DNA of 64,000 nucleotides, taken from the NCBI RefSeq assembly GCF_009914755.1, contig NC_060943.1; one strand, given 5' to 3'. A program made the position numbers and the translations under genes. This stretch comes from the human T2T-CHM13v2.0 reference genome, Homo sapiens. This document shows positions 10,106 through 62,084 of the stretch, piece after piece (positions within the stretch are counted from its first letter, which is position 1; each line of letters opens with the position of its first letter). Under the pieces are notes generated by a model that made no database searches, was not told the origin of the DNA, and worked only from the letters and a program-made list of their open reading frames with translations.

Positions 10106-10122
10106 CTTCGTTGGAAACGGGA
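10106..10122 (+). other. CENP-B box (canonical)
   Basis: CTTCGTTGGAAACGGGA in monomer 6. Confidence 0.92.
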
Positions 10123-10491
10123 TTATCTTCACATAGAAACTAGACTGAAGGATTCTTAGAAACTTCTTTGTGATGTGTGCATTCAACTCACCGAGTGGAA
10201 CCTCACTTTTGATAGAGCAGAGTTGAAAGACACTTGTTGTAGAATCTGCAGGTGGATATTTGGAGTGCTTTGAAGCCTTCCTTGGAAACGGGAATATCTT
10301 CACATAAAAACTAGACATAAGCATTCTCAGAAACTCCTTTGTGATCTGTCCATTCAGCTCACAGAGTTGAACCTTCCTTTTGATAGAGCAGTTTTGAAAC
10401 ACTCTTTCTGTAGAGTCTGCAAGTGGATATCAGGAGCGCTTTGAGGCCTAGGCAGAAAAAGAAATATCTGTATATAAAAACTAGACAGAAG

Positions 10492-10662
10492 CATTCTGAG
10501 AAACTTCTTTGTGATGTTTGCATTCAACTACCAGAGTTGAACCTTCCTTTTGATAGAGCAGTTTTGAAACACTCTTTGTGTAGGATCTGCATGTGGATAT
10601 CAGGAGCGCTTTGAGGCCTATGGCAGAAAAAGAAATATCTGGCTCTAAAAACTAGACAGAAG
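10492..10662 (+). repeat. Extra hybrid monomer of 18-mer variant (unit 4)
   Basis: Same tandem duplication. Unit length 3,065 bp; shares 'cctaggcag', 'ctgtatata' and 'tgtaggatct' with unit 3. Confidence 0.9.
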
Positions 10663-13169: not shown

Positions 13170-13186
13170 CTTCGTTGGAAACGGGA
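13170..13186 (+). other. CENP-B box (canonical)
   Basis: CTTCGTTGGAAACGGGA in monomer 6. Confidence 0.92.
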
Positions 13187-16064: not shown

Positions 16065-16081
16065 CTTCGTTGGAAACGGGA
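16065..16081 (+). other. CENP-B box (canonical)
   Basis: CTTCGTTGGAAACGGGA in monomer 6. Confidence 0.92.
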
Positions 16082-18960: not shown

Positions 18961-18977
18961 CTTCGTTGGAAACGGGA
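18961..18977 (+). other. CENP-B box (canonical)
   Basis: CTTCGTTGGAAACGGGA in monomer 6. Confidence 0.92.
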
Positions 18978-21855: not shown

Positions 21856-21872
21856 CTTCGTTGGAAACGGGT
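21856..21872 (+). other. CENP-B box (core intact, adjacent 2-bp deletion)
   Basis: CTTCGTTGGAAACGGGT keeps the nine core positions NTTCGNNNNANNCGGGN. Confidence 0.82.
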
Positions 21873-36330: not shown

Positions 36331-36347
36331 CTTCGTTGGAAACGGGA
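36331..36347 (+). other. CENP-B box (canonical)
   Basis: CTTCGTTGGAAACGGGA in monomer 6. Confidence 0.92.
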
Positions 36348-39226: not shown

Positions 39227-39243
39227 CTTCGTTGGAAACGGGT
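39227..39243 (+). other. CENP-B box (core intact, adjacent 2-bp deletion)
   Basis: CTTCGTTGGAAACGGGT, same variant as at 21856. Confidence 0.82.
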
Positions 39244-41541
39244 ATCTTCACATAAAAACTAGACTGAAGGATTCTTAGAAACTTCTTTGTGATGTGTGCA
39301 TTCAACTCACCGAGTGGAACCTCACTTTTGATAGAGCAGTGTTGAAAGACACTTGTTGTAGAATCTGCAGGTGGATATTTGGAGTGCTTTGAAGCCTTCC
39401 TTGGAAACGGGAATATCTTCACATAAAAACTAGACATAAGCATTCTCAGAAACTCCTTTGTGATCTGTCCATTCAGCTCACAGAGTTGAACCTTCCTTTT
39501 GATAGAGCAGTTTTGAAACACTCTTTCTGTAGAGTCTGCAAGTGGATATCAGGAGCGCTTTGAGACCTATGGCAGAAAAAGAAATATCTGGCTCTAAAAA
39601 CTAGACAGAAGCATTCTGAGAAACTTCTTTGTGATGTTTGCATTCAACTACCAGAGTTGAACCTTCCTTTTTGATAGAGCAGTTTTGAAACACTCTTTGT
39701 GTAGAATCTGCATGTGGATATCTGGAGCGATTTGAGGCCTATGGTCAAAAAGGAAATATCTTCCTAGGAAAAACAGACAAAAGCATTCTCAGAAACTACT
39801 TTGAGATATGTGCATTCAACTCACAGAGTTGAAACTTTTTTTTGATAGAGCAGTTTTGAAACACTCTGTAGAATCTGAAAGTGGATATTTGGAGCTATTT
39901 GAGGGCTATGGTGGAAAAGAAAATATATTCCCATTAAACTAGACAGAAGCATCCTCAGAAACTTCTTTATGATGTTTGCATTAAACTCACAGAGTTGAAC
40001 ATACCTTTCCATAGAGCAGTTTTGAAACACTCTTTTTGGGGAATCCGCAAGTGGATATTTGGACCGCTTTGAGACCTTTGCTGGAAATGGGAATATCTTC
40101 ACATATAAACTAGACAGAAGCATTCTCGGAAACTTCTTCGTGATGTGTGCATTCTGCTCCCAAAGTTGAACCTTCCTCTTCATAAAGCAGTTTTGAAACA
40201 CTCTTTTGTACAATCTACCATTGGATATGTGGAAGGCTTTGATGCCCATGGTAGAAAAGGAAACATCCTCATATAAAATCTAGACAGAAGGATTCACAGA
40301 AACTGCTGTGTGATGTGTGCATCGAAATCACGGAGTTGAACTTTTCTTTTGTTAGAGCAGTTTTGAAACCCTGTTTCCGTGGAATCTGCCAGTGGACATT
40401 TGGAGCGCATTGAGGGCTATGGTGGAGAAGGAAATATCTTCACATAAAAACTAGAAAGAAGCATTCTCAGAAACATCTATGTGAAGTGTGCATTCAACTC
40501 ACAGAGTTGAACCTTCCTTTTGATAGAAGAGTTTTGAAACACTCTTTTGTACAATTGCAGGTGAATATTTGGAGCGCTTTGAAGCCTTTGTTGGAAATGG
40601 GAATATCCTCACATAAAAACTAGCCAGAAGCATTCTCAGAAACTTCTTTGTGATGTGTGCATTGAACCCAGAGAGATGAACCGTTCCTTTGAGAGAGCAG
40701 TTTTGAAACGTGTTCTTGTAAGATCTGCAAGTGGATATTTGGGGCGCTTTGAGCCCTTAGGTGTAAACGGGAATATCTTCGAATAAAAACTAGACAGAAT
40801 TATTCTCAGAATCTTCTTTGTGATGTGGGCATTCAACTAACACAGTTGAACATGTCTTTTGACAGAGCAGTTCTGAAACACTCTTTTTGTAGAATCCGCC
40901 AGTGGATATTTGGAGCGCTTTGAGGGGTATTGTGCAAATGGAAATATCTTCACCTAAAAACTAGACCGAAGCAATCCCAGAAACTACTTTGTGATGTTTG
41001 CATTCAACTCACAGAGTTGAACCTACCTCTTCATAGAGCAGTTTGGAAAACCTCTTTTTGTAGAATCTGCAAGTGGATATTTGGACCACTTTGAGGCCTT
41101 CATAGGAAACAGTACTATCTTCACATAAAAACTAGGTAGAAGCATTGTCAGAAAATTCTTTGTGATGTGTGAATTCAACTCACAGAGTTGAACCTTCCTT
41201 TAATAGAGCAGTTTTGAAACACTCTTTTTGTAGAATCTGCAAGTAGATATTTGGAGCGCTTTGAGGCCTTCGTTGGAAACCGGAATATCTTCACATAAAA
41301 AGTAGATAGAGGCATTCTCAGAAACTTTTTTGTCATATGTAGATTCAACTCACAGCGCTGAACCTTTCTTTTGATAGAGCAGTTTTGAAAAACTCTTTTA
41401 TCGAATCTGCAAGTAGACATTTGGAGTGCTTTGAGGGCTGTGGTCGAAAAGGAAATATCTTCACATAGAAACTAGACTGAAGCATTCTCAGCAACTTCTT
41501 GGTGACGTTTGCATTCATCTCACAGTGTTGAACATACCTTT

Positions 41542-44500
41542 GCATAGAGTAGTTTCAAAACACTATTTTTGTAGAATCTGCAAGTGGACATTTGGACTGC
41601 TTTGAGGCCTTCATCGGAAACGGGAATATCTTCACATAAACACTAGACAGAAGCATTCTCAGAAACTTCTTTGTGATCTGTCCGTTCAACTCACAGAGTT
41701 GAACCTTCCTTTTTATGGAGCAGTTTTGAAACACTGTTTGTGGAGAATCTGCAAGTGGATATTTGGAGCGCCTTGAGGCCAATGGTAGAAAAAGAAATAT
41801 CTGCCTCTAAATACTAGACTGAAGCATTCTGAGAAACTTCTTTGTGATGTTTGCATTCAACTACCAGAGTTGAACCTTCCTTTTGATAGGGCAGTTTGGA
41901 AACACTCTTTTTGTAGAATCTGCATGTGGATATCTGGAGCGATTTGAGGCCTACGGTCAAAAAGGAAATATCTTCCTGGGAAAAATAGACGAAAGCATTC
42001 TCAGAAACTGCTTTGTGATATGTGCATTCGACTCTCCGAGTTGAAACTTTTTTTTGATAGAGCAGTTTTGAAACACTCTGTAGAATCTGAAAGTGGATAT
42101 TTGGAGCTCTTCGAGGGCTATGGCGGAAAAGAAAATATATTCACATTAAACTAGACAGCAGCATTCTCAGAGACTTCTTTAGGATGTTTGCAGTAAACTC
42201 ACAGAGTTGAACATACCTTTCCGTAAAGCAGTTTTGAAACCCTCTGTTTGTGGGATCTGCAAGTGGATATTTGGACCGCTTTGAGACCTTTGCTGGAAAT
42301 GGGAATATCTTCACATATAAACTAGACAGAAGCATTCTCAGAAACTTCTTCGTGATGTGTGCATTCTACTCCCAAATTTGAATCTTCCTTTTCATGAAGC
42401 AGTTTTGAAACACTCTATTTGTGCATTCTACAATTGGATGATTGGAACGCTTTGATGCCCATGGTAGAAAAGGAAATATCCTCATATAAAAACTAGACAG
42501 AAGGATTCACAGAAAATGCTTTGTGATGTGTGCATTCAAATCACGGAGTTGAATCTTTCTTTTGTTAGAGCAGTTTTGAAACACTGTTTCTGTGGAATCT
42601 GCCAGCGGACACTTGGAGCGCTTTGAGGGCTACGGTGGAGAAGGAAATATCTTCACATAAAAACTAGAAAGAAGCATTCTCAGAAACATTTATGTGAAGC
42701 GTGCATTCAACTCACAGAGTTGAACCTTCCTTTTGATAGAACAGTTTTGAAACACTCTTTTGAACAATTGCAGGTGAATCTTTGGAGCGCTTTGAAGCCT
42801 TTGTTGGAAATGGGAATATCTTCACACACAAACTAGCCAGAAGCATTCTCAGAAACTTCTTTGTGATGTGTGCGTTGAACCCAGAGAGATGAACCTTTCC
42901 TTTGATAGAGCAGTTTTGAAACGTGTTTTTGTAAGATCTGCAAGCGGATAATTGGCTTCGCTTTGTGTCCTTTGGTGGAAACGGGAATATCTTCTAATAA
43001 AAACTAGACAGAGATATTCTCAGAAACTTCTTTGTGATGTGGGCATTCAACTAACACAGTCGAACATTTCTTTTCACAGAGCAGTTTTGAAACACTCTTT
43101 TGGTCGAATCTGCCAGTGGATATTTGGAGCGCTTTGAGGGCTATTGTGCCAATGGAAATATCTGCCCCTAAAAACTAGACAGAAGCATTCTCAGAAACTG
43201 CTTTGTGATGTTTGCATTCAACTCACAGAGTTGAACATACCTTTTCATAGAGCAGTTTTGAAAACCTCTTTTTGTAGAATCTGCAAGAGGATATTCGGAC
43301 CACTTTGAGGCCTTCATAGGAAACAGTAATATCTTCACATAAAAACTAGATAGAAGCATTGTCAGAAAGTTCTTTGTGATGTGTGAATTCAACTCACAGA
43401 GTTGAACCTTCCTTTAATAGAGCAGTTTTGAAACACTCTTTTTCTAGAATCTGCAAGTAGATATTTGGAGCGCTTTGAGGCCTTCTTTGGAAACCGGAAT
43501 ATCTTCACATAAAAAGTAGATAGAGGCATGCTCAGAAACTTTTTTGTCATATGTAGATTCAACTCACAGCGTTGAACCTTTCTTTTGATAGAGCAGTTTT
43601 GAAAAACTCTTTTATCGAATCTGCAAGTAGACATTTGGAGTGCTTTGAGGGCTCTGGTGCAAAAGGAAATGTCTTCCCATAGAAACTAGACTGAATCATT
43701 CTCAGCAACTTCTTGGTGACGTTTGCATTCATCTCACAGTGTTGAACATACCTTTGCATAGAGTAGTTTCGAAACACTATTTTTGTAGAATCTGCAAGTG
43801 GACATTTGGACTGCTTTGAGGCCTTCATCGGAAACGGGAATATCTTCACATAAACACTAGACAGAAGCATTCTCAGAAACTTCTTTGTGATCTGTCCGTT
43901 CAACTCACAGAGTTGAACCTTCCTTTTTATGGAGCAGTTTTGAAACACTGTTTGTGGAGAATCTGCAAGTGGATATTTGGAGCGCCTTGAGGCCAATGGT
44001 AGAAAAAGAAATATCTGCCTCTAAATACTAGACTGAAGCATTCTGAGAAACTTCTTTGTGATGTTTGCATTCAACTACCAGAGTTGAACCTTCCTTTTGA
44101 TAGGGCAGTTTGGAAACACTCTTTTTGTAGAATCTGCATGTGGATATCTGGAGCGATTTGAGGCCTACGGTCAAAAAGGAAATATCTTCCTGGGAAAAAT
44201 AGACGAAAGCATTCTCAGAAACTGCTTTGTGATATGTGCATTCGACTCTCCGAGTTGAAACTTTTTTTTGATAGAGCAGTTTTGAAACACTCTGTAGAAT
44301 CTGAAAGTGGATATTTGGAGCTCTTCGAGGGCTATGGCGGAAAAGAAAATATATTCACATTAAACTAGACAGCAGCATTCTCAGAGACTTCTTTAGGATG
44401 TTTGCAGTAAACTCACAGAGTTGAACATACCTTTCCGTAAAGCAGTTTTGAAACCCTCTGTTTGTGGGATCTGCAAGTGGATATTTGGACCGCTTTGAGA

Positions 44501-47500
44501 CCTTTGCTGGAAATGGGAATATCTTCACATATAAACTAGACAGAAGCATTCTCAGAAACTTCTTCGTGATGTGTGCATTCTACTCCCAAATTTGAATCTT
44601 CCTTTTCATGAAGCAGTTTTGAAACACTCTATTTGTGCATTCTACAATTGGATGATTGGAACGCTTTGATGCCCATGGTAGAAAAGGAAATATCCTCATA
44701 TAAAAACTAGACAGAAGGATTCACAGAAAATGCTTTGTGATGTGTGCATTCAAATCACGGAGTTGAATCTTTCTTTTGTTAGAGCAGTTTTGAAACACTG
44801 TTTCTGTGGAATCTGCCAGCGGACACTTGGAGCGCTTTGAGGGCTACGGTGGAGAAGGAAATATCTTCACATAAAAACTAGAAAGAAGCATTCTCAGAAA
44901 CATTTATGTGAAGCGTGCATTCAACTCACAGAGTTGAACCTTCCTTTTGATAGAACAGTTTTGAAACACTCTTTTGAACAATTGCAGGTGAATCTTTGGA
45001 GCGCTTTGAAGCCTTTGTTGGAAATGGGAATATCTTCACACACAAACTAGCCAGAAGCATTCTCAGAAACTTCTTTGTGATGTGTGCGTTGAACCCAGAG
45101 AGATGAACCTTTCCTTTGATAGAGCAGTTTTGAAACGTGTTTTTGTAAGATCTGCAAGCGGATAATTGGCTTCGCTTTGTGTCCTTTGGTGGAAACGGGA
45201 ATATCTTCTAATAAAAACTAGACAGAGATATTCTCAGAAACTTCTTTGTGATGTGGGCATTCAACTAACACAGTCGAACATTTCTTTTCACAGAGCAGTT
45301 TTGAAACACTCTTTTGGTCGAATCTGCCAGTGGATATTTGGAGCGCTTTGAGGGCTATTGTGCCAATGGAAATATCTGCCCCTAAAAACTAGACAGAAGC
45401 ATTCTCAGAAACTGCTTTGTGATGTTTGCATTCAACTCACAGAGTTGAACATACCTTTTCATAGAGCAGTTTTGAAAACCTCTTTTTGTAGAATCTGCAA
45501 GAGGATATTCGGACCACTTTGAGGCCTTCATAGGAAACAGTAATATCTTCACATAAAAACTAGATAGAAGCATTGTCAGAAAGTTCTTTGTGATGTGTGA
45601 ATTCAACTCACAGAGTTGAACCTTCCTTTAATAGAGCAGTTTTGAAACACTCTTTTTCTAGAATCTGCAAGTAGATATTTGGAGCGCTTTGAGGCCTTCT
45701 TTGGAAACCGGAATATCTTCACATAAAAAGTAGATAGAGGCATGCTCAGAAACTTTTTTGTCATATGTAGATTCAACTCACAGCGTTGAACCTTTCTTTT
45801 GATAGAGCAGTTTTGAAAAACTCTTTTATCGAATCTGCAAGTAGACATTTGGAGTGCTTTGAGGGCTCTGGTGCAAAAGGAAATGTCTTCCCATAGAAAC
45901 TAGACTGAATCATTCTCAGCAACTTCTTGGTGACGTTTGCATTCATCTCACAGTGTTGAACATACCTTTGCATAGAGTAGTTTCGAAACACTATTTTTGT
46001 AGAATCTGCAAGTGGACATTTGGACTGCTTTGAGGCCTTCATCGGAAACGGGAATATCTTCACATAAACACTAGACAGAAGCATTCTCAGAAACTTCTTT
46101 GTGATCTGTCCGTTCAACTCACAGAGTTGAACCTTCCTTTTTATGGAGCAGTTTTGAAACACTGTTTGTGGAGAATCTGCAAGTGGATATTTGGAGCGCC
46201 TTGAGGCCAATGGTAGAAAAAGAAATATCTGCCTCTAAATACTAGACTGAAGCATTCTGAGAAACTTCTTTGTGATGTTTGCATTCAACTACCAGAGTTG
46301 AACCTTCCTTTTGATAGGGCAGTTTGGAAACACTCTTTTTGTAGAATCTGCATGTGGATATCTGGAGCGATTTGAGGCCTACGGTCAAAAAGGAAATATC
46401 TTCCTGGGAAAAATAGACGAAAGCATTCTCAGAAACTGCTTTGTGATATGTGCATTCGACTCTCCGAGTTGAAACTTTTTTTTGATAGAGCAGTTTTGAA
46501 ACACTCTGTAGAATCTGAAAGTGGATATTTGGAGCTCTTCGAGGGCTATGGCGGAAAAGAAAATATATTCACATTAAACTAGACAGCAGCATTCTCAGAG
46601 ACTTCTTTAGGATGTTTGCAGTAAACTCACAGAGTTGAACATACCTTTCCGTAAAGCAGTTTTGAAACCCTCTGTTTGTGGGATCTGCAAGTGGATATTT
46701 GGACCGCTTTGAGACCTTTGCTGGAAATGGGAATATCTTCACATATAAACTAGACAGAAGCATTCTCAGAAACTTCTTCGTGATGTGTGCATTCTACTCC
46801 CAAATTTGAATCTTCCTTTTCATGAAGCAGTTTTGAAACACTCTATTTGTGCATTCTACAATTGGATGATTGGAACGCTTTGATGCCCATGGTAGAAAAG
46901 GAAATATCCTCATATAAAAACTAGACAGAAGGATTCACAGAAAATGCTTTGTGATGTGTGCATTCAAATCACGGAGTTGAATCTTTCTTTTGTTAGAGCA
47001 GTTTTGAAACACTGTTTCTGTGGAATCTGCCAGCGGACACTTGGAGCGCTTTGAGGGCTACGGTGGAGAAGGAAATATCTTCACATAAAAACTAGAAAGA
47101 AGCATTCTCGGAAACATTTATGTGAAGCGTGCATTCAACTCACAGAGTTGAACCTTCCTTTTGATAGAACAGTTTTGAAACACTCTTTTGAACAATTACA
47201 GGTGAATCTTTGGAGCGCTTTGAAGCCATTGTTGGAAATGGGAATATCTTCACACACAAACTAGCCAGAAGCATTCTCAGAAACTTCTTTGTGATGTGTG
47301 CGTTGAACCCAGAGAGATGAACCTTTCCTTTGATAGAGCAGTTTTGAAACGTGTTTTTGTAAGATCTGCAAGCGGATAATTGGCTTCGCTTTGTGTCCTT
47401 TGGTGGAAACGGGAATATCTTCTAATAAAAACTAGACAGAGATATTCTCAGAAATTTCTTTGTGATGTGGGCATTCAACTAACACAGTCGAACATTTCTT

Positions 47501-50500
47501 TTCACAGAGCAGTTTTGAAACACTCTTTTGGTCGAATCTGCCAGTGGATATTTGGAGCGCTTTGAGGGCTATTGTGCCAATGGAAATATCTGCCCCTAAA
47601 AACTAGACAGAAGCATTCTCAGAAACTGCTTTGTGATGTTTGCATTCAACTCACAGAGTTGAACATACCTTTTCATAGAGCAGTTTTGAAAACCTCTTTT
47701 TGTAGAATCTGCAAGAGGATATTCGGACCACTTTGAGGCCTTCATAGGAAACAGTAATATCTTCACATAAAAACTAGATAGAAGCATTGTCAGAAAGTTC
47801 TTTGTGATGTGTGAATTCCACTCACAGAGTTGAACCTTCCTTTAATAGAGCAGTTTTGAAACACTCTTTTTCTAGAATCTGCAAGTAGATATTTGGAGCG
47901 CTTTGAGGCCTTCTTTGGAAACCGGAATATCTTCACATAAAAAGTAGATAGAGGCATGCTCAGAAACTTTTTTGTCATATGTAGATTCAACTCACAGCGT
48001 TGAACCTTTCTTTTGATAGAGCAGTTTTGAAAAACTCTTTTATCGAATCTGCAAGTAGACATTTGGAGTGCTTTGAGGGCTCTGGTGCAAAAGGAAATGT
48101 CTTCCCATAGAAACTAGACTGAATCATTCTCAGCAACTTCTTGGTGACGTTTGCATTCATCTCACAGTGTTGAACATACCTTTGCATAGAGTAGTTTCGA
48201 AACACTATTTTTGTAGAATCTGCAAGTGGACATTTGGACTGCTTTGAGGCCTTCATCGGAAACGGGAATATCTTCACATAAACACTAGACAGAAGCATTC
48301 TCAGAAACTTCTTTGTGATCTGTCCGTTCAACTCACAGAGTTGAACCTTCCTTTTTATGGAGCAGTTTTGAAACACTGTTTGTGGAGAATCTGCAAGTGG
48401 ATATTTGGAGCGCCTTGAGGCCAATGGTAGAAAAAGAAATATCTGCCTCTAAATACTAGACTGAAGCATTCTGAGAAACTTCTTTGTGATGTTTGCATTC
48501 AACTACCAGAGTTGAACCTTCCTTTTGATAGGGCAGTTTGGAAACACTCTTTTTGTAGAATCTGCATGTGGATATCTGGAGCGATTTGAGGCCTACGGTC
48601 AAAAAGGAAATATCTTCCTGGGAAAAATAGACGAAAGCATTCTCAGAAACTGCTTTGTGATATGTGCATTCGACTCTCCGAGTTGAAACTTTTTTTTGAT
48701 AGAGCAGTTTTGAAACACTCTGTAGAATCTGAAAGTGGATATTTGGAGCTCTTCGAGGGCTATGGCGGAAAAGAAAATATATTCACATTAAACTAGACAG
48801 CAGCATTCTCAGAGACTTCTTTAGGATGTTTGCAGTAAACTCACAGAGTTGAACATACCTTTCCGTAAAGCAGTTTTGAAACCCTCTGTTTGTGGGATCT
48901 GCAAGTGGATATTTGGACCGCTTTGAGACCTTTGCTGGAAATGGGAATATCTTCACATATAAACTAGACAGAAGCATTCTCAGAAACTTCTTCGTGATGT
49001 GTGCATTCTACTCCCAAATTTGAATCTTCCTTTTCATGAAGCAGTTTTGAAACACTCTATTTGTGCATTCTACAATTGGATGATTGGAACGCTTTGATGC
49101 CCATGGTAGAAAAGGAAATATCCTCATATAAAAACTAGACAGAAGGATTCACAGAAAATGCTTTGTGATGTGTGCATTCAAATCACGGAGTTGAATCTTT
49201 CTTTTGTTAGAGCAGTTTTGAAACACTGTTTCTGTGGAATCTGCCAGCGGACACTTGGAGCGCTTTGAGGGCTACGGTGGAGAAGGAAATATCTTCACAT
49301 AAAAACTAGAAAGAAGCATTCTCGGAAACATTTATGTGAAGCGTGCATTCAACTCACAGAGTTGAACCTTCCTTTTGATAGAACAGTTTTGAAACACTCT
49401 TTTGAACAATTGCAGGTGAATCTTTGGAGCGCTTTGAAGCCTTTGTTGGAAATGGGAATATCTTCACACACAAACTAGCCAGAAGCATTCTCAGAAACTT
49501 CTTTGTGATGTGTGCGTTGAACCCAGAGAGATGAACCTTTCCTTTGATAGAGCAGTTTTGAAACGTGTTTTTGTAAGATCTGCAAGCGGATAATTGGCTT
49601 CGCTTTGTGTCCTTTGGTGGAAACGGGAATATCTTCTAATAAAAACTAGACAGAGATATTCTCAGAAACTTCTTTGTGATGTGGGCATTCAACTAACACA
49701 GTCGAACATTTCTTTTCACAGAGCAGTTTTGAAACACTCTTTTGGACGAATCTGCCAGTGGATATTTGGAGCGCTTTGAGGGCTATTGTGCCAATGGAAA
49801 TATCTGCCCCTAAAAACTAGACAGAAGCATTCTCAGAAACTGCTTTGTGATGTTTGCATTCAACTCACAGAGTTGAACATACCTTTTCATAGAGCAGTTT
49901 TGAAAACCTCTTTTTGTAGAATCTGCAAGAGGATATTCGGACCACTTTGAGGCCTTCATAGGAAACAGTAATATCTTCACATAAAAACTAGATAGAAGCA
50001 TTGTCAGAAAGTTCTTTGTGATGTGTGAATTCAACTCACAGAGTTGAACCTTCCTTTAATAGAGCAGTTTTGAAACACTCTTTTTCTAGAATCTGCAAGT
50101 AGATATTTGGAGCGCTTTGAGGCCTTCTTTGGAAACCGGAATATCTTCACATAAAAAGTAGATAGAGGCATGCTCAGAAACTTTTTTGTCATATGTAGAT
50201 TCAACTCACAGCGTTGAACCTTTCTTTTGATAGAGCAGTTTTGAAAAACTCTTTTATCGAATCTGCAAGTAGACATTTGGAGTGCTTTGAGGGCTCTGGT
50301 GCAAAAGGAAATGTCTTCCCATAGAAACTAGACTGAATCATTCTCAGCAACTTCTTGGTGACGTTTGCATTCATCTCACAGTGTTGAACATACCTTTGCA
50401 TAGAGTAGTTTCGAAACACTATTTTTGTAGAATCTGCAAGTGGACATTTGGACTGCTTTGAGGCCTTCATCGGAAACGGGAATATCTTCACATAAACACT

Positions 50501-53500: not shown

Positions 53501-56500
53501 CAATTGGATGATTGGAACGCTTTGATGCCCATGGTAGAAAAGGAAATATCCTCATATAAAAACTAGACAGAAGGATTCACAGAAAATGCTTTGTGATGTG
53601 TGCATTCAAATCACGGAGTTGAATCTTTCTTTTGTTAGAGCAGTTTTGAAACACTGTTTCTGTGGAATCTGCCAGCGGACACTTGGAGCGCTTTGAGGGC
53701 TACGGTGGAGAAGGAAATATCTTCACATAAAAACTAGAAAGAAGCATTCTCGGAAACATTTATGTGAAGCGTGCATTCAACTCACAGAGTTGAACCTTCC
53801 TTTTGATAGAACAGTTTTGAAACACTCTTTTGAACAATTACAGGTGAATCTTTGGAGCGCTTTGAAGCCTTTGTTGGAAATGGGAATATCTTCACACACA
53901 AACTAGCCAGAAGCATTCTCAGAAACTTCTTTGTGATGTGTGCGTTGAACCCAGAGAGATGAACCTTTCCTTTGATAGAGCAGTTTTGAAACGTGTTTTT
54001 GTAAGATCTGCAAGCGGATAATTGGCTTCGCTTTGTGTCCTTTGGTGGAAACGGGAATATCTTCTAATAAAAACTAGACAGAGATATTCTCAGAAACTTC
54101 TTTGTGATGTGGGCATTCAACTAACACAGTCGAACATTTCTTTTCACAGAGCAGTTTTGAAACACTCTTTTGGTCGAATCTGCCAGTGGATATTTGGAGC
54201 GCTTTGAGGGCTATTGTGCCAATGGAAATATCTGCCCCTAAAAACTAGACAGAAGCATTCTCAGAAACTGCTTTGTGATGTTTGCATTCAACTCACAGAG
54301 TTGAACATACCTTTTCATAGAGCAGTTTTGAAAACCTCTTTTTGTAGAATCTGCAAGAGGATATTCGGACCACTTTGAGGCCTTCATAGGAAACAGTAAT
54401 ATCTTCACATAAAAACTAGATAGAAGCATTGTCAGAAAGTTCTTTGTGATGTGTGAATTCAACTCACAGAGTTGAACCTTCCTTTAATAGAGCAGTTTTG
54501 AAACACTCTTTTTCTAGAATCTGCAAGTAGATATTTGGAGCGCTTTGAGGCCTTCTTTGGAAACCGGAATATCTTCACATAAAAAGTAGATAGAGGCATG
54601 CTCAGAAACTTTTTTGTCATATGTAGATTCAACTCACAGCGTTGAACCTTTCTTTTGATAGAGCAGTTTTGAAAAACTCTTTTATCGAATCTGCAAGTAG
54701 ACATTTGGAGTGCTTTGAGGGCTCTGGTGCAAAAGGAAATGTCTTCCCATAGAAACTAGACTGAATCATTCTCAGCAACTTCTTGGTGACGTTTGCATTC
54801 ATCTCACAGTGTTGAACATACCTTTGCATAGAGTAGTTTCGAAACACTATTTTTGTAGAATCTGCAAGTGGACATTTGGACTGCTTTGAGGCCTTCATCG
54901 GAAACGGGAATATCTTCACATAAACACTAGACAGAAGCATTCTCAGAAACTTCTTTGTGATCTGTCCGTTCAACTCACAGAGTTGAACCTTCCTTTTTAT
55001 GGAGCAGTTTTGAAACACTGTTTGTGGAGAATCTGCAAGTGGATATTTGGAGCGCCTTGAGGCCAATGGTAGAAAAAGAAATATCTGCCTCTAAATACTA
55101 GACTGAAGCATTCTGAGAAACTTCTTTGTGATGTTTGCATTCAACTACCAGAGTTGAACCTTCCTTTTGATAGGGCAGTTTGGAAACACTCTTTTTGTAG
55201 AATCTGCATGTGGATATCTGGAGCGATTTGAGGCCTACGGTCAAAAAGGAAATATCTTCCTGGGAAAAATAGACGAAAGCATTCTCAGAAACTGCTTTGT
55301 GATATGTGCATTCGACTCTCCGAGTTGAAACTTTTTTTTGATAGAGCAGTTTTGAAACACTCTGTAGAATCTGAAAGTGGATATTTGGAGCTCTTCGAGG
55401 GCTATGGCGGAAAAGAAAATATATTCACATTAAACTAGACAGCAGCATTCTCAGAGACTTCTTTAGGATGTTTGCAGTAAACTCACAGAGTTGAACATAC
55501 CTTTCCGTAAAGCAGTTTTGAAACCCTCTGTTTGTGGGATCTGCAAGTGGATATTTGGACCGCTTTGAGACCTTTGCTGGAAATGGGAATATCTTCACAT
55601 ATAAACTAGACAGAAGCATTCTCAGAAACTTCTTCGTGATGTGTGCATTCTACTCCCAAATTTGAATCTTCCTTTTCATGAAGCAGTTTTGAAACACTCT
55701 ATTTGTGCATTCTACAATTGGATGATTGGAACGCTTTGATGCCCATGGTAGAAAAGGAAATATCCTCATATAAAAACTAGACAGAAGGATTCACAGAAAA
55801 TGCTTTGTGATGTGTGCATTCAAATCACGGAGTTGAATCTTTCTTTTGTTAGAGCAGTTTTGAAACACTGTTTCTGTGGAATCTGCCAGCGGACACTTGG
55901 AGCGCTTTGAGGGCTACGGTGGAGAAGGAAATATCTTCACATAAAAACTAGAAAGAAGCATTCTCAGAAACATTTATGTGAAGCGTGCATTCAACTCACA
56001 GAGTTGAACCTTCCTTTTGATAGAACAGTTTTGAAACACTCTTTTGAACAATTACAGGTGAATCTTTGGAGCGCTTTGAAGCCTTTGTTGGAAATGGGAA
56101 TATCTTCACACACAAACTAGCCAGAAGCATTCTCAGAAACTTCTTTGTGATGTGTGCGTTGAACCCAGAGAGATGAACCTTTCCTTTGATAGAGCAGTTT
56201 TGAAACGTGTTTTTGTAAGATCTGCAAGCGGATAATTGGCTTCGCTTTGTGTCCTTTGGTGGAAACGGGAATATCTTCTAATAAAAACTAGACAGAGATA
56301 TTCTCAGAAATTTCTTTGTGATGTGGGCATTCAACTAACACAGTCGAACATTTCTTTTCACAGAGCAGTTTTGAAACACTCTTTTGGTCGAATCTGCCAG
56401 TGGATATTTGGAGCGCTTTGAGGGCTATTGTGCCAATGGAAATATCTGCCCCTAAAAACTAGACAGAAGCATTCTCAGAAACTGCTTTGTGATGTTTGCA

Positions 56501-59500
56501 TTCAACTCACAGAGTTGAACATACCTTTTCATAGAGCAGTTTTGAAAACCTCTTTTTGTAGAATCTGCAAGAGGATATTCGGACCACTTTGAGGCCTTCA
56601 TAGGAAACAGTAATATCTTCACATAAAAACTAGATAGAAGCATTGTCAGAAAGTTCTTTGTGATGTGTGAATTCCACTCACAGAGTTGAACCTTCCTTTA
56701 ATAGAGCAGTTTTGAAACACTCTTTTTCTAGAATCTGCAAGTAGATATTTGGAGCGCTTTGAGGCCTTCTTTGGAAACCGGAATATCTTCACATAAAAAG
56801 TAGATAGAGGCATGCTCAGAAACTTTTTTGTCATATGTAGATTCAACTCACAGCGTTGAACCTTTCTTTTGATAGAGCAGTTTTGAAAAACTCTTTTATC
56901 GAATCTGCAAGTAGACATTTGGAGTGCTTTGAGGGCTCTGGTGCAAAAGGAAATGTCTTCCCATAGAAACTAGACTGAATCATTCTCAGCAACTTCTTGG
57001 TGACGTTTGCATTCATCTCACAGTGTTGAACATACCTTTGCATAGAGTAGTTTCGAAACACTATTTTTGTAGAATCTGCAAGTGGACATTTGGACTGCTT
57101 TGAGGCCTTCATCGGAAACGGGAATATCTTCACATAAACACTAGACAGAAGCATTCTCAGAAACTTCTTTGTGATCTGTCCGTTCAACTCACAGAGTTGA
57201 ACCTTCCTTTTTATGGAGCAGTTTTGAAACACTGTTTGTGGAGAATCTGCAAGTGGATATTTGGAGCGCCTTGAGGCCAATGGTAGAAAAAGAAATATCT
57301 GCCTCTAAATACTAGACTGAAGCATTCTGAGAAACTTCTTTGTGATGTTTGCATTCAACTACCAGAGTTGAACCTTCCTTTTGATAGGGCAGTTTGGAAA
57401 CACTCTTTTTGTAGAATCTGCATGTGGATATCTGGAGCGATTTGAGGCCTACGGTCAAAAAGGAAATATCTTCCTGGGAAAAATAGACGAAAGCATTCTC
57501 AGAAACTGCTTTGTGATATGTGCATTCGACTCTCCGAGTTGAAACTTTTTTTTGATAGAGCAGTTTTGAAACACTCTGTAGAATCTGAAAGTGGATATTT
57601 GGAGCTCTTCGAGGGCTATGGCGGAAAAGAAAATATATTCACATTAAACTAGACAGCAGCATTCTCAGAGACTTCTTTAGGATGTTTGCAGTAAACTCAC
57701 AGAGTTGAACATACCTTTCCGTAAAGCAGTTTTGAAACCCTCTGTTTGTGGGATCTGCAAGTGGATATTTGGACCGCTTTGAGACCTTTGCTGGAAATGG
57801 GAATATCTTCACATATAAACTAGACAGAAGCATTCTCAGAAACTTCTTCGTGATGTGTGCATTCTACTCCCAAATTTGAATCTTCCTTTTCATGAAGCAG
57901 TTTTGAAACACTCTATTTGTGCATTCTACAATTGGATGATTGGAACGCTTTGATGCCCATGGTAGAAAAGGAAATATCCTCATATAAAAACTAGACAGAA
58001 GGATTCACAGAAAATGCTTTGTGATGTGTGCATTCAAATCACGGAGTTGAATCTTTCTTTTGTTAGAGCAGTTTTGAAACACTGTTTCTGTGGAATCTGC
58101 CAGCGGACACTTGGAGCGCTTTGAGGGCTACGGTGGAGAAGGAAATATCTTCACATAAAAAATAGAAAGAAGCATTCTCAGAAACATTTATGTGAAGCGT
58201 GCATTCAACTCACAGAGTTGAACCTTCCTTTTGATAGAACAGTTTTGAAACACTCTTTTGAACAATTGCAGGTGAATCTTTGGAGCGCTTTGAAGCCTTT
58301 GTTGGAAATGGGAATATCTTCACACACAAACTAGCCAGAAGCATTCTCAGAAACTTCTTTGTGATGTGTGCATTGAACCCAGAGAGATGAACCTTTCCTT
58401 TGATAGAGCAGTTTTGAAACGTGTTTTTGTAAGATCTGCAAGCGGATAATTGGCTTCGCTTTGTGTCCTTTGGTGGAAACGGGAATATCTTCTAATAAAA
58501 ACTAGACAGAGATATTCTCAGAAACTTCTTTGTGATGTGGGCATTCAACTGACACAGTTGAACATTTCTTTTCACAGAGCAGTTTTGAAACACTCTTTTG
58601 GTCGAATCTGCCAGTGGATATTTGGAGCGCTTTGAGGGCTATTGTGACAATGGAAATATCTGCCCCTAAAAACTAGACAGAAGCATTCTCAGAAACTGCT
58701 TTGTGATGTTTGCATTCAACTCACAGAGTTGAACCTACCTTTTCATAGAGCAGTTTTGAAAACCTCTTTTTGTAGAATCTGCAAGAGGATATTCGGACCA
58801 CTTTGAGGCCTTCATAGGAAACAGTAATATCTTCACATAAAAACTAGATAGAAGCATTGTCAGAAAGTTCTTTGTGATGTGTGAATTCAACTCACAGAGT
58901 TGAACCTTCCTTTAATAGAGCAGTTTTGAAACACTCTTTTTCTAGAATCTGCAAGTAGATATTTGGAGCGCTTTGAGGCCTTCTTTGGAAACCGGAATAT
59001 CTTCACATAAAAAGTAGATAGAGGCATGCTCAGAAACTTTTTTGTCATATGTAGATTCAACTCACAGCGTTGAACCTTTCTTTTGATAGAGCAGTTTTGA
59101 AAAACTCTTTTATCGAATCTGCAAGTAGACATTTGGAGTGCTTTGAGGGCTCTGGTGCAAAAGGAAATGTCTTCCCATAGAAACTAGACTGAATCATTCT
59201 CAGCAACTTCTTGGTGACGTTTGCATTCATCTCACAGTGTTGAACATACCTTTGCATAGAGTAGTTTCGAAACACTATTTTTGTAGAATCTGCAAGTGGA
59301 CATTTGGACTGCTTTGAGGCCTTCATCGGAAACGGGAATATCTTCACATAAACACTAGACAGAAGCATTCTCAGAAACTTCTTTGTGATCTGTCCGTTCA
59401 ACTCACAGAGTTGAACCTTCCTTTTTATGGAGCAGTTTTGAAACACTGTTTGTGGAGAATCTGCAAGTGGATATTTGGAGCGCCTTGAGGCCAATGGTAG

Positions 59501-62069
59501 AAAAAGAAATATCTGCCTCTAAATACTAGACTGAAGCATTCTGAGAAACTTCTTTGTGATGTTTGCATTCAACTACCAGAGTTGAACCTTCCTTTTGATA
59601 GGGCAGTTTGGAAACACTCTTTTTGTAGAATCTGCATGTGGATATCTGGAGCGATTTGAGGCCTACGGTCAAAAAGGAAATATCTTCCTGGGAAAAATAG
59701 ACGAAAGCATTCTCAGAAACTGCTTTGTGATATGTGCATTCGACTCTCCGAGTTGAAACTTTTTTTTGATAGAGCAGTTTTGAAACACTCTGTAGAATCT
59801 GAAAGTGGATATTTGGAGCTCTTCGAGGGCTATGGCGGAAAAGAAAATATATTCACATTAAACTAGACAGCAGCATTCTCAGAGACTTCTTTAGGATGTT
59901 TGCAGTAAACTCACAGAGTTGAACATACCTTTCTGTAAAGCAGTTTTGAAACCCTCTGTTTGTGGGATCTGCAAGTGGATATTTGGACCGCTTTGAGACC
60001 TTTGCTGGAAATGGGAATATCTTCACATATAAACTAGACAGAAGCATTCTCAGAAACTTCTTCGTGATGTGTGCATTCTACTCCCAAATTTGAATCTTCC
60101 TTTTCATGAAGCAGTTTTGAAACACTCTATTTGTGCATTCTACAATTGGATGATTGGAACGCTTTGATGCCCATGGTAGAAAAGGAAATATCCTCATATA
60201 AAAACTAGACAGAAGGATTCACAGAAAATGCTTTGTGATGTGTGCATTCAAATCACGGAGTTGAATCTTTCTTTTGTTAGAGCAGTTTTGAAACACTGTT
60301 TCTGTGGAATCTGCCAGCGGACACTTGGAGCGCTTTGAGGGCTACGGTGGAGAAGGAAATATCTTCACATAAAAACTAGAAAGAAGCATTCTCAGAAACA
60401 TTTATGTGAAGCGTGCATTCAACTCACAGAGTTGAACCTTCCTTTTGATAGAACAGTTTTGAAACACTCTTTTGAACAATTGCAGGTGAATCTTTGGAGC
60501 GCTTTGAAGCCTTTGTTGGAAATGGGAATATCTTCACACACAAACTAGCCAGAAGCATTCTCAGAAACTTCTTTGTGATGTGTGCGTTGAACCCAGAGAG
60601 ATGAACCTTTCCTTTGATAGAGCAGTTTTGAAACGTGTTTTTGTAAGATCTGCAAGCGGATAATTGGCTTCGCTTTGTGTCCTTTGGTGGAAACGGGAAT
60701 ATCTTCTAATAAAAACTAGACAGAGATATTCTCAGAAATTTCTTTGTGATGTGGGCATTCATCTAACACAGTCGAAGATTTCTTTTCACAGAGCAGTTTT
60801 GAAACACTCTTTTGGTCGAATCTGCCAGTGGATATTTGGAGCGCTTTGAGGGCTATTGTGCCAATGGAAATATCTGCCCCTAAAAACTAGACAGAAGCAT
60901 TCTCAGAAACTGCTTTGTGATGTTTGCATTCAACTCACAGAGTTGAACATACCTTTTCATAGAGCAGTTTTGAAAACCTCTTTTTGTAGAATCTGCAAGA
61001 GGATATTCGGACCACTTTGAGGCCTTCATAGGAAACAGTAATATCTTCACATAAAAACTAGATAGAAGCATTGTCAGAAAGTTCTTTGTGATGTGTGAAT
61101 TCAACTCACAGAGTTGAACCTTCCTTTAATAGAGCAGTTTTGAAACACTCTTTTTCTAGAATCTGCAAGTAGATATTTGGAGCGCTTTGAGGCCTTCTTT
61201 GGAAACCGGAATATCTTCACATAAAAAGTAGATAGAGGCATGCTCAGAAACTTTTTTGTCATATGTAGATTCAACTCACAGCGTTGAACCTTTCTTTTGA
61301 TAGAGCAGTTTTGAAAAACTCTTTTATCGAATCTGCAAGTAGACATTTGGAGTGCTTTGAGGGCTCTGGTGCAAAAGGAAATGTCTTCCCATAGAAACTA
61401 GACTGAATCATTCTCAGCAACTTCTTGGTGACGTTTGCATTCATCTCACAGTGTTGAACATACCTTTGCATAGAGTAGTTTCGAAACACTATTTTTGTAG
61501 AATCTGCAAGTGGACATTTGGACTGCTTTGAGGCCTTCATCGGAAACGGGAATATCTTCACATAAACACTAGACAGAAGCATTCTCAGAAACTTCTTTGT
61601 GATCTGTCCGTTCAACTCACAGAGTTGAACCTTCCTTTTTATGGAGCAGTTTTGAAACACTGTTTGTGGAGAATCTGCAAGTGGATATTTGGAGCGCCTT
61701 GAGGCCAATGGTAGAAAAAGAAATATCTGCCTCTAAATACTAGACTGAAGCATTCTGAGAAACTTCTTTGTGATGTTTGCATTCAACTACCAGAGTTGAA
61801 CCTTCCTTTTGATAGGGCAGTTTGGAAACACTCTTTTTGTAGAATCTGCATGTGGATATCTGGAGCGATTTGAGGCCTACGGTCAAAAAGGAAATATCTT
61901 CCTGGGAAAAATAGACGAAAGCATTCTCAGAAACTGCTTTGTGATATGTGCATTCGACTCTCCGAGTTGAAACTTTTTTTTGATAGAGCAGTTTTGAAAC
62001 ACTCTGTAGAATCTGAAAGTGGATATTTGGAGCTCTTTGAGGGCTATGGCGGAAAAGAAAATATATTCA
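41542..62069 (+). repeat. 13-mer alpha-satellite HOR block (2,214 bp unit, ~9.3 copies); probably SF5, chr5 D5Z1/pG-A16-like
   Basis: GAATTC at 43385, 45599, 47813, 50027, 52241, 54455, 56669, 58883, 61097, at exact 2,214-bp spacing. Diagnostic sequences absent from the 17-mer include 'gcggataattggcttcgctttgtgtcc', 'cattcgactctccgag' and 'gtgcattctacaattggatgattgg'. Locus name from memory, unverified. Confidence 0.93.
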
Positions 62070-62084
62070 CATTAAACTAGACAG

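What the first reader, a model, noticed from the sequence alone, without database searches (positions are those of the whole stretch)
41483..62084. ~20.5 kb island of a foreign 13-mer HOR spliced in register into a 17-mer array
Seen: the 17-mer array switches abruptly to a sister HOR with dozens of fixed differences and four fewer monomers, runs 9 full units plus ~3.5 monomers, and switches back. Both switches occur at homologous monomer positions with no indel or foreign filler. The block is not a simple deletion variant of the local 17-mer, because every monomer is diverged. Inference: a double crossover, long-tract gene conversion or template switch from a separate 13-mer array. If the two HORs are the chr19 17-mer and chr5 13-mer as I recall, this would record inter-chromosomal transfer of centromeric DNA.
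Basis: partly seen in the sequence, partly recalled or inferred. Interest (0 to 1): 0.8.

Follow-up and report, generated by a model that had tools for sequence, protein, structure and literature searches.

The report
Neighbour-array 13-mer block inside chr19 17-mer
A 20.6 kb block of 13-monomer alpha-satellite repeats really does sit in register inside a 17-monomer array, but it comes from the large 13-monomer array that begins only 8 kb away on the same chromosome 19, so it is ordinary mixing between neighbouring centromeric arrays and not a transfer from chromosome 5.

Summary
A 17/18-monomer HOR array (2895/3066 bp) switches to a 13-monomer HOR (2214 bp, monomers E-H absent). The switch to the 13-mer lies between 41482 and 41542, and the switch back between 62069 and 62085. 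Both are in register and carry no filler. There are 122 diagnostic sites, and the two consensus units differ by 6.3%.

After the island the 17-mer continues for only 7.6 kb. A continuous 13-mer array then runs from chr19:24,684,052 to at least 24,878,000, and 13-mers are also present at 25.21 Mb. This is D19Z1, named S5C5/19H4-B in print.

The island's closest relative is a 27 kb block 28 kb further along chr19, at 0.23% consensus divergence. A sampled chr5 13-mer differs by 2.98%. Two island-type 40-mers match exactly only on chr19 (18 of 18 and 19 of 19 hits). The 17-mer is the minor partner, with 31 units genome-wide, all on chr19.

Most likely an in-register homologous recombination patch came from the adjacent array and was then amplified locally. 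Another clean hybrid unit lies nearby, so such switches recur here. This is an ordinary feature of low interest.

The parts
6..41482 (+). 17/18-monomer alpha-satellite HOR array: 14 full units plus the 17-type head of hybrid unit u15. Unit structure is ABCDEFGHI(I)JKLMNOPQ, 2894-2896 bp or 3065-3066 bp.
   Evidence: all diagnostic sites are 17-type apart from 5 scattered single sites
41048..43261 (+). Left hybrid unit (u15): A, B and the first part of C are 17-type, the rest is 13a-type, and E-H are absent. Length 2214 bp.
   Evidence: a 96-base sequence across the junction occurs once in the genome at up to 1 mismatch
41483..41541 (+). Left crossover interval: 59 bases with no fixed difference between the two HORs, inside monomer C.
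   Evidence: The last 17-type site is 41482 and the first 13-type site is 41542. The one polymorphic column in between is shared with 17-mer units u9 and u11, so it is uninformative.
41483..62084 (+). Island of the 13-monomer HOR, haplotype '13a': 20,602 bp or 9.3 units of 2214 bp, structure ABCD-IJKLMNOPQ.
60974..63185 (+). Right hybrid unit (u24): 13a-type up to the first half of monomer K, then 17-type. Length 2212 bp.
   Evidence: an 83-base sequence across the junction occurs once in the genome at up to 1 mismatch
62070..62084 (+). Right crossover interval: 15 bases identical in both HORs, inside monomer K.
   Evidence: The last 13-type site is 62069 and the first 17-type site is 62085.
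62085..64000 (+). Resumed 17-mer array. Beyond the window it continues only to about chr19:24,683,658, which is 7.6 kb in all, before the irregular boundary with the main 13-mer array.
   Evidence: (the last monomer is E)

Best explanation
The window lies at the centromere-proximal end of a small 17/18-monomer HOR array. This array holds about 113 kb and 31 units, at chr19:24,570,75x-24,683,658. It is flanked by divergent monomeric alpha satellite on the p side. On the other side it abuts the large inactive 13-monomer array D19Z1 (the S5C5/19H4 family, shared with chr5 as D5Z1).

The 'island' is a block of one HOR-haplotype of that neighbouring array, here called 13a. It entered the 17-mer array 7.6 kb from its end by homologous recombination in register between the two 94%-identical sister repeats on chromosome 19. 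The exchange could have been between sister chromatids, between homologues or within one chromatid.

The route I favour (about 0.5) has two steps. First, a single patch-type event copied at least 1.3 units of 13a in place of about 25 monomers of 17-mer. This could have been a double crossover, a long-tract conversion or a break-induced template switch. Second, unequal sister-chromatid exchange inside the patch amplified it to 9.3 near-identical units.

Shown: the anatomy, both junction intervals, the adjacent source array, and the nearest relative on chr19. Inferred: the type and number of recombination events and the later amplification. The DNA has no coding function. D19Z1 is reported not to carry CENP-A.
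For: (1) Adjacent source. After the island the 17-mer runs only 2.4 units. An irregular junction follows, and then 13-mers run continuously from 24,684,052 to at least 24,878,000. 13-mers are also present at 25.208 Mb. The D-to-I deletion-junction 40-mer has 247 forward and 135 reverse hits genome-wide at up to 3 mismatches. Every listed forward hit is on chr19 and every listed reverse hit is on chr5 (100 of 382 listed).

(2) Nearest relative. The island consensus differs from the chr19 24.704-24.731 Mb block by 0.23%. It differs by 1.81% from the 24.684-24.704 haplotype, 2.98% from the main chr19 haplotype, 2.98% from chr5 50.914 Mb, 5.37% from chr5 50.671 Mb and 6.19% from the 17-mer. In a FastTree tree of 60 units, island plus block form a clade of exactly 17 of 17 tips (support 0.864). 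With the neighbouring haplotype they form 22 of 22 (0.995). The 3 chr5 units form their own clade (1.0).

(3) Genome-wide probes. An island 40-mer is exact 18 times, all at chr19 24.656-24.730 Mb. At up to 2 mismatches all 25 hits are on chr19, and all 22 chr5 hits need 3 mismatches. The 17-mer-specific monomer-F probe gives 31 hits, all at chr19 24,570,881-24,681,101.

(4) Junctions. Diagnostic sites switch once, coherently, within 59 and 15 bases of identity, and the hybrid units have normal length. Each junction sequence is unique in the genome.

(5) Patch into a continuous array. The 17-type head of u15 is 0-1 differences from units u9, u11, u12 and u25. The 17-type tail of u24 is 1 difference from u10 and 2 from u14, against 7-18 for the other 12 units. 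Units u13 and u14 copy u7 and u8 (9 and 7 differences per unit). The flanks therefore read as copies of u7-u8-u9...u10.

(6) Local amplification. Mean pairwise divergence within the island is 0-0.8% per monomer position. The units share one variant that is absent from the downstream block, and the island has none of that block's 10-monomer variants.

(7) Recurrence. The unit at chr19:24,702,169 is another clean in-register hybrid between two 13-mer haplotypes, with 20 sites of one type followed by 21 of the other.

(8) Print (passages read). CHM13 chr19 has a 606 kb 13-mer D19Z1 array (PMC7545148). Chr5 and chr19 share D5Z1/D19Z1 (PMC2853522). S5C5/19H4 is shared by chr5 and chr19 (PMC9549924). 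S5C5/19H4-B is D19Z1 and an -A form exists (bioRxiv 10.1101/2025.07.26.666712).
Against: Only one haplotype was examined, so the number and order of events cannot be read directly.

The colinearity argument weakens after the island. Unit u25 is 26 differences from u11, about 3 times the 7-9 seen for the u7/u13 and u8/u14 pairs, and most of these lie in its last third.

Only 20 kb of the chr5 array was fetched. Exclusion of a chr5 donor elsewhere rests on two 40-mer probes, and the tool states that its repeat counts are lower bounds.

Mammalian conversion tracts of several kb are unusual (established knowledge), so the patch may really be two crossovers.

No reads were available to validate the assembly. 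The HiCanu paper noted a nanopore coverage drop over D19Z1 in an earlier contig.

Recombinant units violate tree assumptions.
Confidence: 0.82

Rival explanations
1. Two separate unequal crossovers at different times produced the island, and there was no single patch event. The first exchange ran between a 13a unit and a 17-mer unit at monomer K. It duplicated the array end and made the right junction. The second ran between a 17-mer unit and a 13a unit at monomer C. It deleted the intervening copy and made the left junction.
For: Both junctions are simple in-register switches, as single crossovers would leave. Unequal crossover is the textbook mode of HOR array evolution (PMC2853522 passages). 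Unit-number variants are abundant nearby, including 18-mers, 10-mers and 24-monomer units.
Against: It needs the two crossover points in the 17-mer array to fall in neighbouring units by coincidence, because the head and tail of the flanks match the u9 / u10 series.

The simplest one-crossover version predicts a second copy of the left junction. That sequence is unique in the genome, and monomer C of unit 68977 is 17-type (3 differences from the 17-type C consensus against 11 from the 13a consensus).
Confidence: 0.3
2. Direct inter-chromosomal transfer: the 13-mer block was copied from the chr5 D5Z1 array into the chr19 17-mer array.
For: Chr5 carries the same 13-monomer HOR with the same E-H deletion, at 50.66-50.96 Mb on the minus strand with 2214 bp spacing. 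The family is a known 5/19 shared domain, so exchange between the two chromosomes did happen at some time.
Against: The sampled chr5 units are 2.98% and 5.37% from the island, against 0.23% for the chr19 block 28 kb away. No chr5 hit comes closer than 3 mismatches to one island 40-mer or 1 mismatch to the other, while all 18 and all 19 exact hits are on chr19. The chr19 13-mer array starts about 8 kb from the island.
Confidence: 0.02
3. Assembly artefact: reads from the 13-mer array were wrongly placed inside the 17-mer array.
For: No reads could be examined here. An earlier CHM13 contig showed a nanopore coverage drop over D19Z1 that its authors said might be a misassembly (PMC7545148 passage).
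Against: Two independent misjoins would each have to fall in register inside 15- and 59-base identity tracts.

Each junction lies within a single 2.2 kb unit, so any long read across it carries both repeat types.

The island units share a variant that the 9 pure 13a units of the downstream block lack. All 8 pure island units have distinct variant patterns, so the island is not a collapsed or copied version of that block.
Confidence: 0.04
4. Mirror reading: the 7.6 kb of 17-mer after the island is the inserted piece. On this view the true array boundary is the left junction at 41483.
For: The layouts are topologically equivalent. The short 17-mer piece lies between two 13-mer haplotypes.
Against: The far end of that piece is an irregular junction. 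It consists of a D monomer 13 differences from the 17-type consensus, an odd 222 bp monomer, and a Q-like monomer 12 differences from any type. I read this as the original array boundary because it is diverged and not homogenised, which is an inference. The 17-type flanks on both sides of the island belong to the same local subfamily.
Confidence: 0.1

Closest known systems
D19Z1 / D5Z1, named S5C5/19H4-B in the T2T satellite annotation (inactive SF5 alpha-satellite HOR shared by chr5 and chr19)
   Same: It is a 13-monomer, 2.2 kb unit. It forms a large array on CHM13 chr19 next to the window and is present on chr5. The 13-mers contain no CENP-B-type box, as reported for D5Z1.
   Different: The island is one particular haplotype (13a), about 3% from the main chr19 haplotype and from the sampled chr5 one. 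It lies outside the main array, inside the 17-mer. No named reference sequence was compared, so identity with the named HOR rests on position, unit length and chromosomes.
S5C5/19H4-A, the sister form named beside -B in bioRxiv 10.1101/2025.07.26.666712
   Same: It is an inactive chr19 HOR of the same family as D19Z1. The window's 17-mer shares 13 of its 17 monomers with the 13-mer at 94% identity.
   Different: That the 17-mer is the '-A' form is my inference. The 17-mer probe found it on chr19 only (31 of 31 hits).
HOR-haplotype domains and structural-variant HORs inside alpha-satellite arrays (layered expansion; Altemose et al., bioRxiv 10.1101/2021.07.12.452052, passages read)
   Same: There are blocks of distinct HOR variants along one array and very low divergence within a young block. 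An older-looking variant lies on the flank next to monomeric alpha satellite.
   Different: The published description concerns mostly active arrays and variants that differ slightly. Here the two forms differ by 6.3% and four monomers, and the array is inactive.
D19Z1-derived insertions of 0.40-1.06 Mb inside the active D19Z3 array in some human haplotypes (bioRxiv 10.1101/2025.07.26.666712)
   Same: D19Z1 sequence is relocated within the chr19 centromere region, with junctions that mark a single ancestral event.
   Different: Those insertions are 20-50 times larger and lie in an unrelated SF1 array. Their junctions are not in register (a 108 bp monomer piece joined to inactive HOR sequence). 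Here homologous monomers recombined.
Subset domains separated by crossover or conversion hybrids in D1Z5 (BAC BX248407; PMC2853522)
   Same: There are homogeneous subsets with almost no sharing of diagnostic variants. They are joined by units read as products of unequal crossover with conversion.
   Different: That case has the same unit length in both subsets and lower divergence, on a different chromosome.

Membership tests
Alpha-satellite higher-order repeat array | Head-to-tail monomers of about 171 bp, all in one orientation | tested here: met
   376 monomers of 167-172 bp in the window. All 1524 monomer hits in 264 kb are on the + strand.
Alpha-satellite higher-order repeat array | Monomers within a unit are strongly diverged while whole units are nearly identical | tested here: met
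   Different monomer positions differ by 10-30%. Mean pairwise divergence per monomer position is 0.7-2.9% among the 17-mers and 0-0.8% in the island.
S5C5/19H4 (D5Z1/D19Z1) family | 13-monomer unit of about 2.2 kb forming a large inactive array on chr19 | tested here: met
   2214 bp units run continuously from 24,684,052 to at least 24,878,000 and are present at 25.208 Mb. At least 247 forward-strand junction hits were found. Print reports a 606 kb 13-mer D19Z1.
S5C5/19H4 (D5Z1/D19Z1) family | Shared by chr5 and chr19 | tested here: met
   The same ABCD-IJKLMNOPQ unit occurs at chr5:50.914 Mb at 2.98% from the island. The listed chr5 junction hits span 50.66-50.86 Mb.
S5C5/19H4 (D5Z1/D19Z1) family | Monomers classed as suprachromosomal family 5 (R1/R2) by the standard monomer models | not testable with these tools
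   No HumAS-HMMER models or named reference sequences are held here. SF5 is taken from print only.
S5C5/19H4 (D5Z1/D19Z1) family | No CENP-B boxes (reported for D5Z1) | tested here: met
   The motif TTCGNNNNANNCGGG, recalled from memory, has 0 matches in any 13-mer unit of the 264 kb. Its 9 matches all lie in monomer G of 17-mer units.
Inter-chromosomal transfer from chr5 | The closest relative of the inserted block lies on the donor chromosome | tested here: not met
   0.23% to a chr19 block against 2.98% and 5.37% to the chr5 samples. Exact probe hits are 18 of 18 and 19 of 19 on chr19.
Inter-chromosomal transfer from chr5 | No source array of the same kind on the recipient chromosome | tested here: not met
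   The 13-mer array starts about 8 kb beyond the island on chr19.
Homologous (in-register) recombination junction between sister repeats | A single coherent switch of diagnostic sites inside a tract of identity, with no indel or filler and homologous monomer positions | tested here: met
   Left: 12 of 13 sites 17-type, then 109 of 109 13-type. Right: 51 of 52 sites 13-type, then 70 of 70 17-type. The intervals are 59 and 15 bases, and the hybrid units are 2214 and 2212 bp.
Gene-conversion / patch insertion (as opposed to two separate crossovers) | Recipient flanks are colinear with an uninterrupted copy of the array, and the donor is retained elsewhere | tested here: inconclusive
   The donor-type block is retained at 24.704-24.731 Mb. 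The head matches u9/u11/u12 (0-1 differences) and the tail matches u10 (1 difference), but the next unit u25 is 26 differences from u11.

The most novel reading that the evidence does not exclude
The island is a base-pair-resolved record of one HOR haplotype seeding a new domain across an array boundary. A single ectopic conversion or template-switch tract of several kb passed between repeats that differ by 6%. Clonal amplification followed, and the event is recent enough (0.23% from its source) to be polymorphic among living humans. If so, the two unique junction sequences would be ready-made markers. They could date such seeding events and measure how often they occur in pangenome assemblies.
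Probability: 0.3. Interest if true: 0.35.

Novelty: new member of a known kind. Interest (0 to 1): 0.15.

Why it matters
It matters little beyond bookkeeping. It shows that the apparent 'foreign' block is the neighbouring D19Z1-type array reaching 8 kb into a small flanking 17-mer array. That removes a claim of recent chr5-to-chr19 transfer.

The modest value lies in the exact mapping. There are two unique junctions (59- and 15-base intervals), a retained source block 28 kb away, and a third clean hybrid nearby. Together they give a tidy worked example of how diverged sister HORs on one chromosome exchange sequence in register. They also provide sequence markers that could be looked up in other complete human genomes.

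Tried and rejected
(1) A whole-unit DNA search of the own genome was not scored because there were too many candidates. I used 40- to 96-base exact patterns in its place.

Single 10 kb pieces were fetched in its place, so the 17-mer array between 24.571 and 24.604 Mb is known only from the probe hits.

(3) I first read the 13-mer's fifth monomer as an E/I hybrid marking the deletion breakpoint, and I now reject that reading. The 'E-like' states in its first 58 bases are also the general alpha-satellite consensus states (TRF consensus). They are interleaved with I-type states, so the 17-mer's I monomer probably carries derived changes. The breakpoint of the E-H deletion is unresolved, as is which form is ancestral.

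(4) The one-crossover model predicts a duplicated left junction. I reject it because the junction is unique and monomer C of unit 68977 is 17-type.

(5) The B monomers of units u7 and u13 clustered with the 13-mer's B at the 3% threshold. They carry no 13-type diagnostic sites, so they are not a conversion patch.

The published Science version under PMC9233505 was not held. The preprint of that paper names no chr19 array in its main text.

(7) One literature search on HOR-name fragments returned only chemistry papers.

(8) Searches found no paper describing a 17-mer/13-mer junction on chr19. HOR tables in supplements that I could not open may list both forms.


Full report
**1. What is in the window**

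The whole window is one alpha-satellite array in a single orientation (TRF: 6..64000, period 171, 375.8 copies). GC is flat at 0.38-0.39, and no gene is annotated (hub note). Self-comparison at all lags gives two long periods. A period of 2894-2896 bp (with 3065-3066 bp in places) holds up to about 41,000. A period of 2214 bp at 99-100% identity holds from about 41,000 to 61,500.

I cut the window into 376 monomers with nhmmer, aligned them and clustered them. At 12% divergence there are 17 monomer classes, A-Q. The window then reads as follows:
- 14 units ABCDEFGHI(I)JKLMNOPQ, three of which are 18-mers with a doubled I
- 10 units ABCD-IJKLMNOPQ
- ABCDE, where the 17-mer resumes (the last, truncated monomer is an E)

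**2. The two repeats are sister HORs, not deletion variants**

Every one of the 13 shared monomers differs between the two forms, by 5-17 consensus positions. The total is 140 of 2215 (6.3%). Mean pairwise divergence per monomer position is 0-0.8% within the island and 0.7-2.9% among the 17-mers.

**3. The junctions**

I defined 122 diagnostic substitution sites, fixed in 8 pure 13-mer units and in at least 12 of 13 17-mer units.

Unit 41048-43261 is 17-type at 12 of its first 13 sites and then 13-type at 109 of 109. The odd site is also 13-type in the 17-mer unit u11. Unit 60974-63185 is 13-type at 51 of its first 52 sites and then 17-type at 70 of 70. Its odd site, 62038, is a CpG in the 13-mer and TpG here, so it may be a private mutation and not evidence of a mosaic tract.

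The crossover intervals are 41483-41541 (59 bases, monomer C) and 62070-62084 (15 bases, monomer K). The hybrid units are 2214 and 2212 bp, so there is no indel or filler. A 96-base and an 83-base sequence spanning the two junctions each occur once in the 3.1 Gb genome at up to one mismatch.

**4. Surroundings on chr19**

The own genome could be searched and sampled. I fetched the 200 kb following the window, 10 kb just before it and 10 kb at 24.561 Mb.

After the island the 17-mer continues for only 2.4 units. At about 24,683,488-24,684,051 there is an irregular junction. It consists of a D monomer 13 differences from type, an odd 222 bp monomer, and a Q-like monomer 12 differences from any type. 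From 24,684,052 the 13-monomer HOR runs without interruption to the end of the fetched DNA at 24,878,000. It is also present at 25.208 Mb.

Upstream, the 17/18-mer array begins at about 24,570,75x. Before that lies divergent monomeric alpha satellite, 19-40 differences per monomer from any HOR monomer.

A 40-mer from monomer F, which only the 17-mer has, hits 31 times in the genome at up to 3 mismatches. All hits are at chr19 24,570,881-24,681,101. The '17-mer array' is therefore a small flank of about 113 kb including the island. It lies between monomeric alpha satellite and a much larger 13-mer array. The island sits 7.6 kb from the 17-mer array's end.

**5. Where the island's haplotype comes from**

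The 13-mer array is made of several haplotypes:
- '13c' at 24.684-24.704 Mb
- '13a' at 24.704-24.731 Mb, which includes 10-monomer variants
- intermediates at 24.731-24.742 Mb
- the main '13b' beyond that

The island consensus differs from these and other samples as follows:

| Compared with | Consensus divergence |
|---|---|
| chr19 13a block (24.704-24.731 Mb) | 0.23% |
| chr19 13c | 1.81% |
| chr19 25.208 Mb | 2.76% |
| chr19 13b (main) | 2.98% |
| chr5 50.914 Mb | 2.98% |
| chr5 50.671 Mb | 5.37% |
| 17-mer | 6.19% |

I built a FastTree tree of 60 units. All 17/18-mer units, all 13a, 13c, chr5 and 25.2 Mb units, and every sixth 13b unit were kept, and the two hybrids were left out. Rooted on the 17-mer clade, island plus 13a block form a clade of 17 of 17 tips (support 0.864). 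With 13c they form 22 of 22 (0.995). The three chr5 50.914 Mb units form their own clade (1.0).

Genome-wide probes agree:
- An island 40-mer is exact 18 times, 9 in the island and 9 at 24.7035-24.7303 Mb.
- At up to 2 mismatches, all 25 hits are on chr19.
- All 22 chr5 hits need 3 mismatches.
- The 40-mer across the D-to-I deletion junction is exact 19 times, all at chr19 24.655-24.732 Mb.
- At up to 3 mismatches that junction 40-mer has 247 forward and 135 reverse hits. Of the 100 rows listed, every forward hit is on chr19 and every reverse hit is on chr5.

The same E-H deletion is thus shared by the chr19 and chr5 arrays. The island's own version, however, is local to chr19.

**6. Mechanism**

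Both ends are what in-register homologous recombination between 94%-identical sister repeats leaves. What cannot be read from one haplotype is whether one event or two made them.

Evidence for a patch into a continuous 17-mer array:
- Units u13 and u14 are copies of u7 and u8 (9 and 7 differences per 2.9 kb), a six-unit duplication.
- The 17-type head of the left hybrid is 0-1 differences from u9, u11, u12 and u25.
- The 17-type tail of the right hybrid is 1 difference from u10 and 2 from u14, against 7-18 for the other 12 units.

The flanks therefore read as u7'-u8'-u9'(head) ... u10'(tail), and about 25 monomers of 17-mer have been replaced.

Evidence against: the next unit, u25, is 26 differences from u11, mostly in its last third.

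The simplest single unequal crossover predicts a second copy of the left junction. It is rejected because that junction is unique and monomer C of unit 68977 is 17-type.

The island's units share one variant absent from the downstream 13a block and lack that block's 10-monomer variants. They differ from one another at only a few sites, and all 8 pure units have distinct patterns. This fits local amplification from a small seed.

My odds are about 0.5 for a patch plus amplification, about 0.3 for two separate unequal crossovers, and the rest for other routes. Intrachromosomal origin from the adjacent array is far firmer, at about 0.9.

**7. Such switches recur here**

The unit at chr19:24,702,169 is a clean in-register hybrid of 13c and 13a, with 20 sites of one type followed by 21 of the other. 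The 13a-to-13b transition passes through mosaic haplotypes. Unit-number variants also occur within the 264 kb: 18-, 10- and 24-monomer forms.

**8. What is in print (passages read with the find function, not whole papers)**

- The HiCanu paper reports for CHM13 chr19 a 606 kb D19Z1 array of a 13-mer, a 289 kb complex 'D19Z2?' and a 3.96 Mb D19Z3. It notes a nanopore coverage drop over D19Z1 in that early contig (PMC7545148).
- Pironon et al. state that chr5 and chr19 share D5Z1 and D19Z1 (PMC2853522).
- Shepelev et al. list two SF5 reference models shared by chr5 and chr19 (PMC4496801).
- Miga and Alexandrov name S5C5/19H4 as shared by chr5 and chr19 (PMC9549924).
- A 2025 preprint uses the labels hor(S5C5/19H4-A/B) and says the -B form is D19Z1. 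It also describes 0.40-1.06 Mb D19Z1-derived insertions in D19Z3 in some haplotypes (10.1101/2025.07.26.666712).
- D19Z1 and D5Z1 show no CENP-A enrichment, and D5Z1 has no CENP-B boxes (PMC4410388; PMC5052034).
- HOR-haplotype layers are described in the Altemose et al. preprint.

That the 17-mer is the '-A' form is my inference. Searches found no text on a 17-mer/13-mer junction on chr19.

**9. Verdict**

This is a well-resolved but ordinary example of interdigitation between two adjacent sister HOR arrays in an inactive pericentromeric region. It is a new instance of a known kind and of low interest.

Noticed in passing
window 6-3071, 5967-9032, 9033-12097; also L024 (chr19:24,604,001-24,614,000): 18-monomer variants of the 17-mer with monomer I doubled (3065-3066 bp). 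There are 3 of these among the 14 units in the window, and all 3 full units just upstream are 18-mers.
   Followed up: partly
window 17888-23676 versus 35258-41047: A six-unit (17,370 bp) duplication lies inside the 17-mer array. Units u7 and u8 match u13 and u14 at 9 and 7 differences per 2.9 kb, against 26-53 for most other pairs.
   Followed up: partly
window 7042, 10107, 13171, 16066, 18962, 21857, 36332, 39228; and L001 at about 3155: A CENP-B-box-like motif (TTCGTTGGAAACGGG, matching a consensus recalled from memory) sits in monomer G of 9 of the 16 17/18-mer units in the 264 kb. Monomer G is missing from the 13-mer, which has no such motif.
   Followed up: partly
L002:1333-3749 and L002:5964-8380 (chr19:24,689,333-24,691,749 and 24,693,964-24,696,380): Two adjacent 13-mer units each carry a 2417 bp stretch not recognised as alpha-satellite monomers, giving units of 4630-4631 bp. 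The first holds a 681-residue open frame with a partial reverse-transcriptase domain (Pfam RVT_1, E 5e-23). I read it as a 5'-truncated LINE-1 that inserted once and was then duplicated along with its unit.
   Followed up: partly
L001:5488-6051 (chr19:24,683,488-24,684,051): This is the true boundary between the 17-mer and the main 13-mer array, and it is out of register. It consists of a diverged D monomer, an odd 222 bp monomer and a diverged Q-like monomer, all unlike the homogenised units on either side.
   Followed up: partly
L003:4169-6382 (chr19:24,702,169-24,704,382): Another clean in-register hybrid unit, this time between two 13-mer haplotypes: 20 diagnostic sites of 13c followed by 21 of 13a.
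   Followed up: yes
L003-L006 (chr19:24,706,597-24,728,906); L007-L008 (24,744,402-24,752,563); L012 (24,794,625): Structural variants of the 13-mer occur here. There are four 10-monomer units lacking M-O (ABCDIJKLPQ, 1703 bp), two 24-monomer units of 4081 bp, and one 10-monomer unit lacking B-D.
   Followed up: no
L022:6490-10000 (chr19:25,214,490-25,218,000): Near the far side of the 13-mer array, some 13-monomer units have monomers B, C, K and P closer to the 17-mer's versions than to 13a. For example, C is 2% from the 17-type against 8% from 13a. One such unit joins the 17-mer side of the tree on a long branch. This may be an older layer on both flanks or another exchange.
   Followed up: no
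L023 (chr5:50,671,001-50,681,000, minus strand): Chr5 carries a 24-monomer repeat built from the same monomers, a 13-mer followed by a diverged ABCDIJKLMN-A. Probe hits recur every 4089 bp, and the unit is 5.4% from the island.
   Followed up: no
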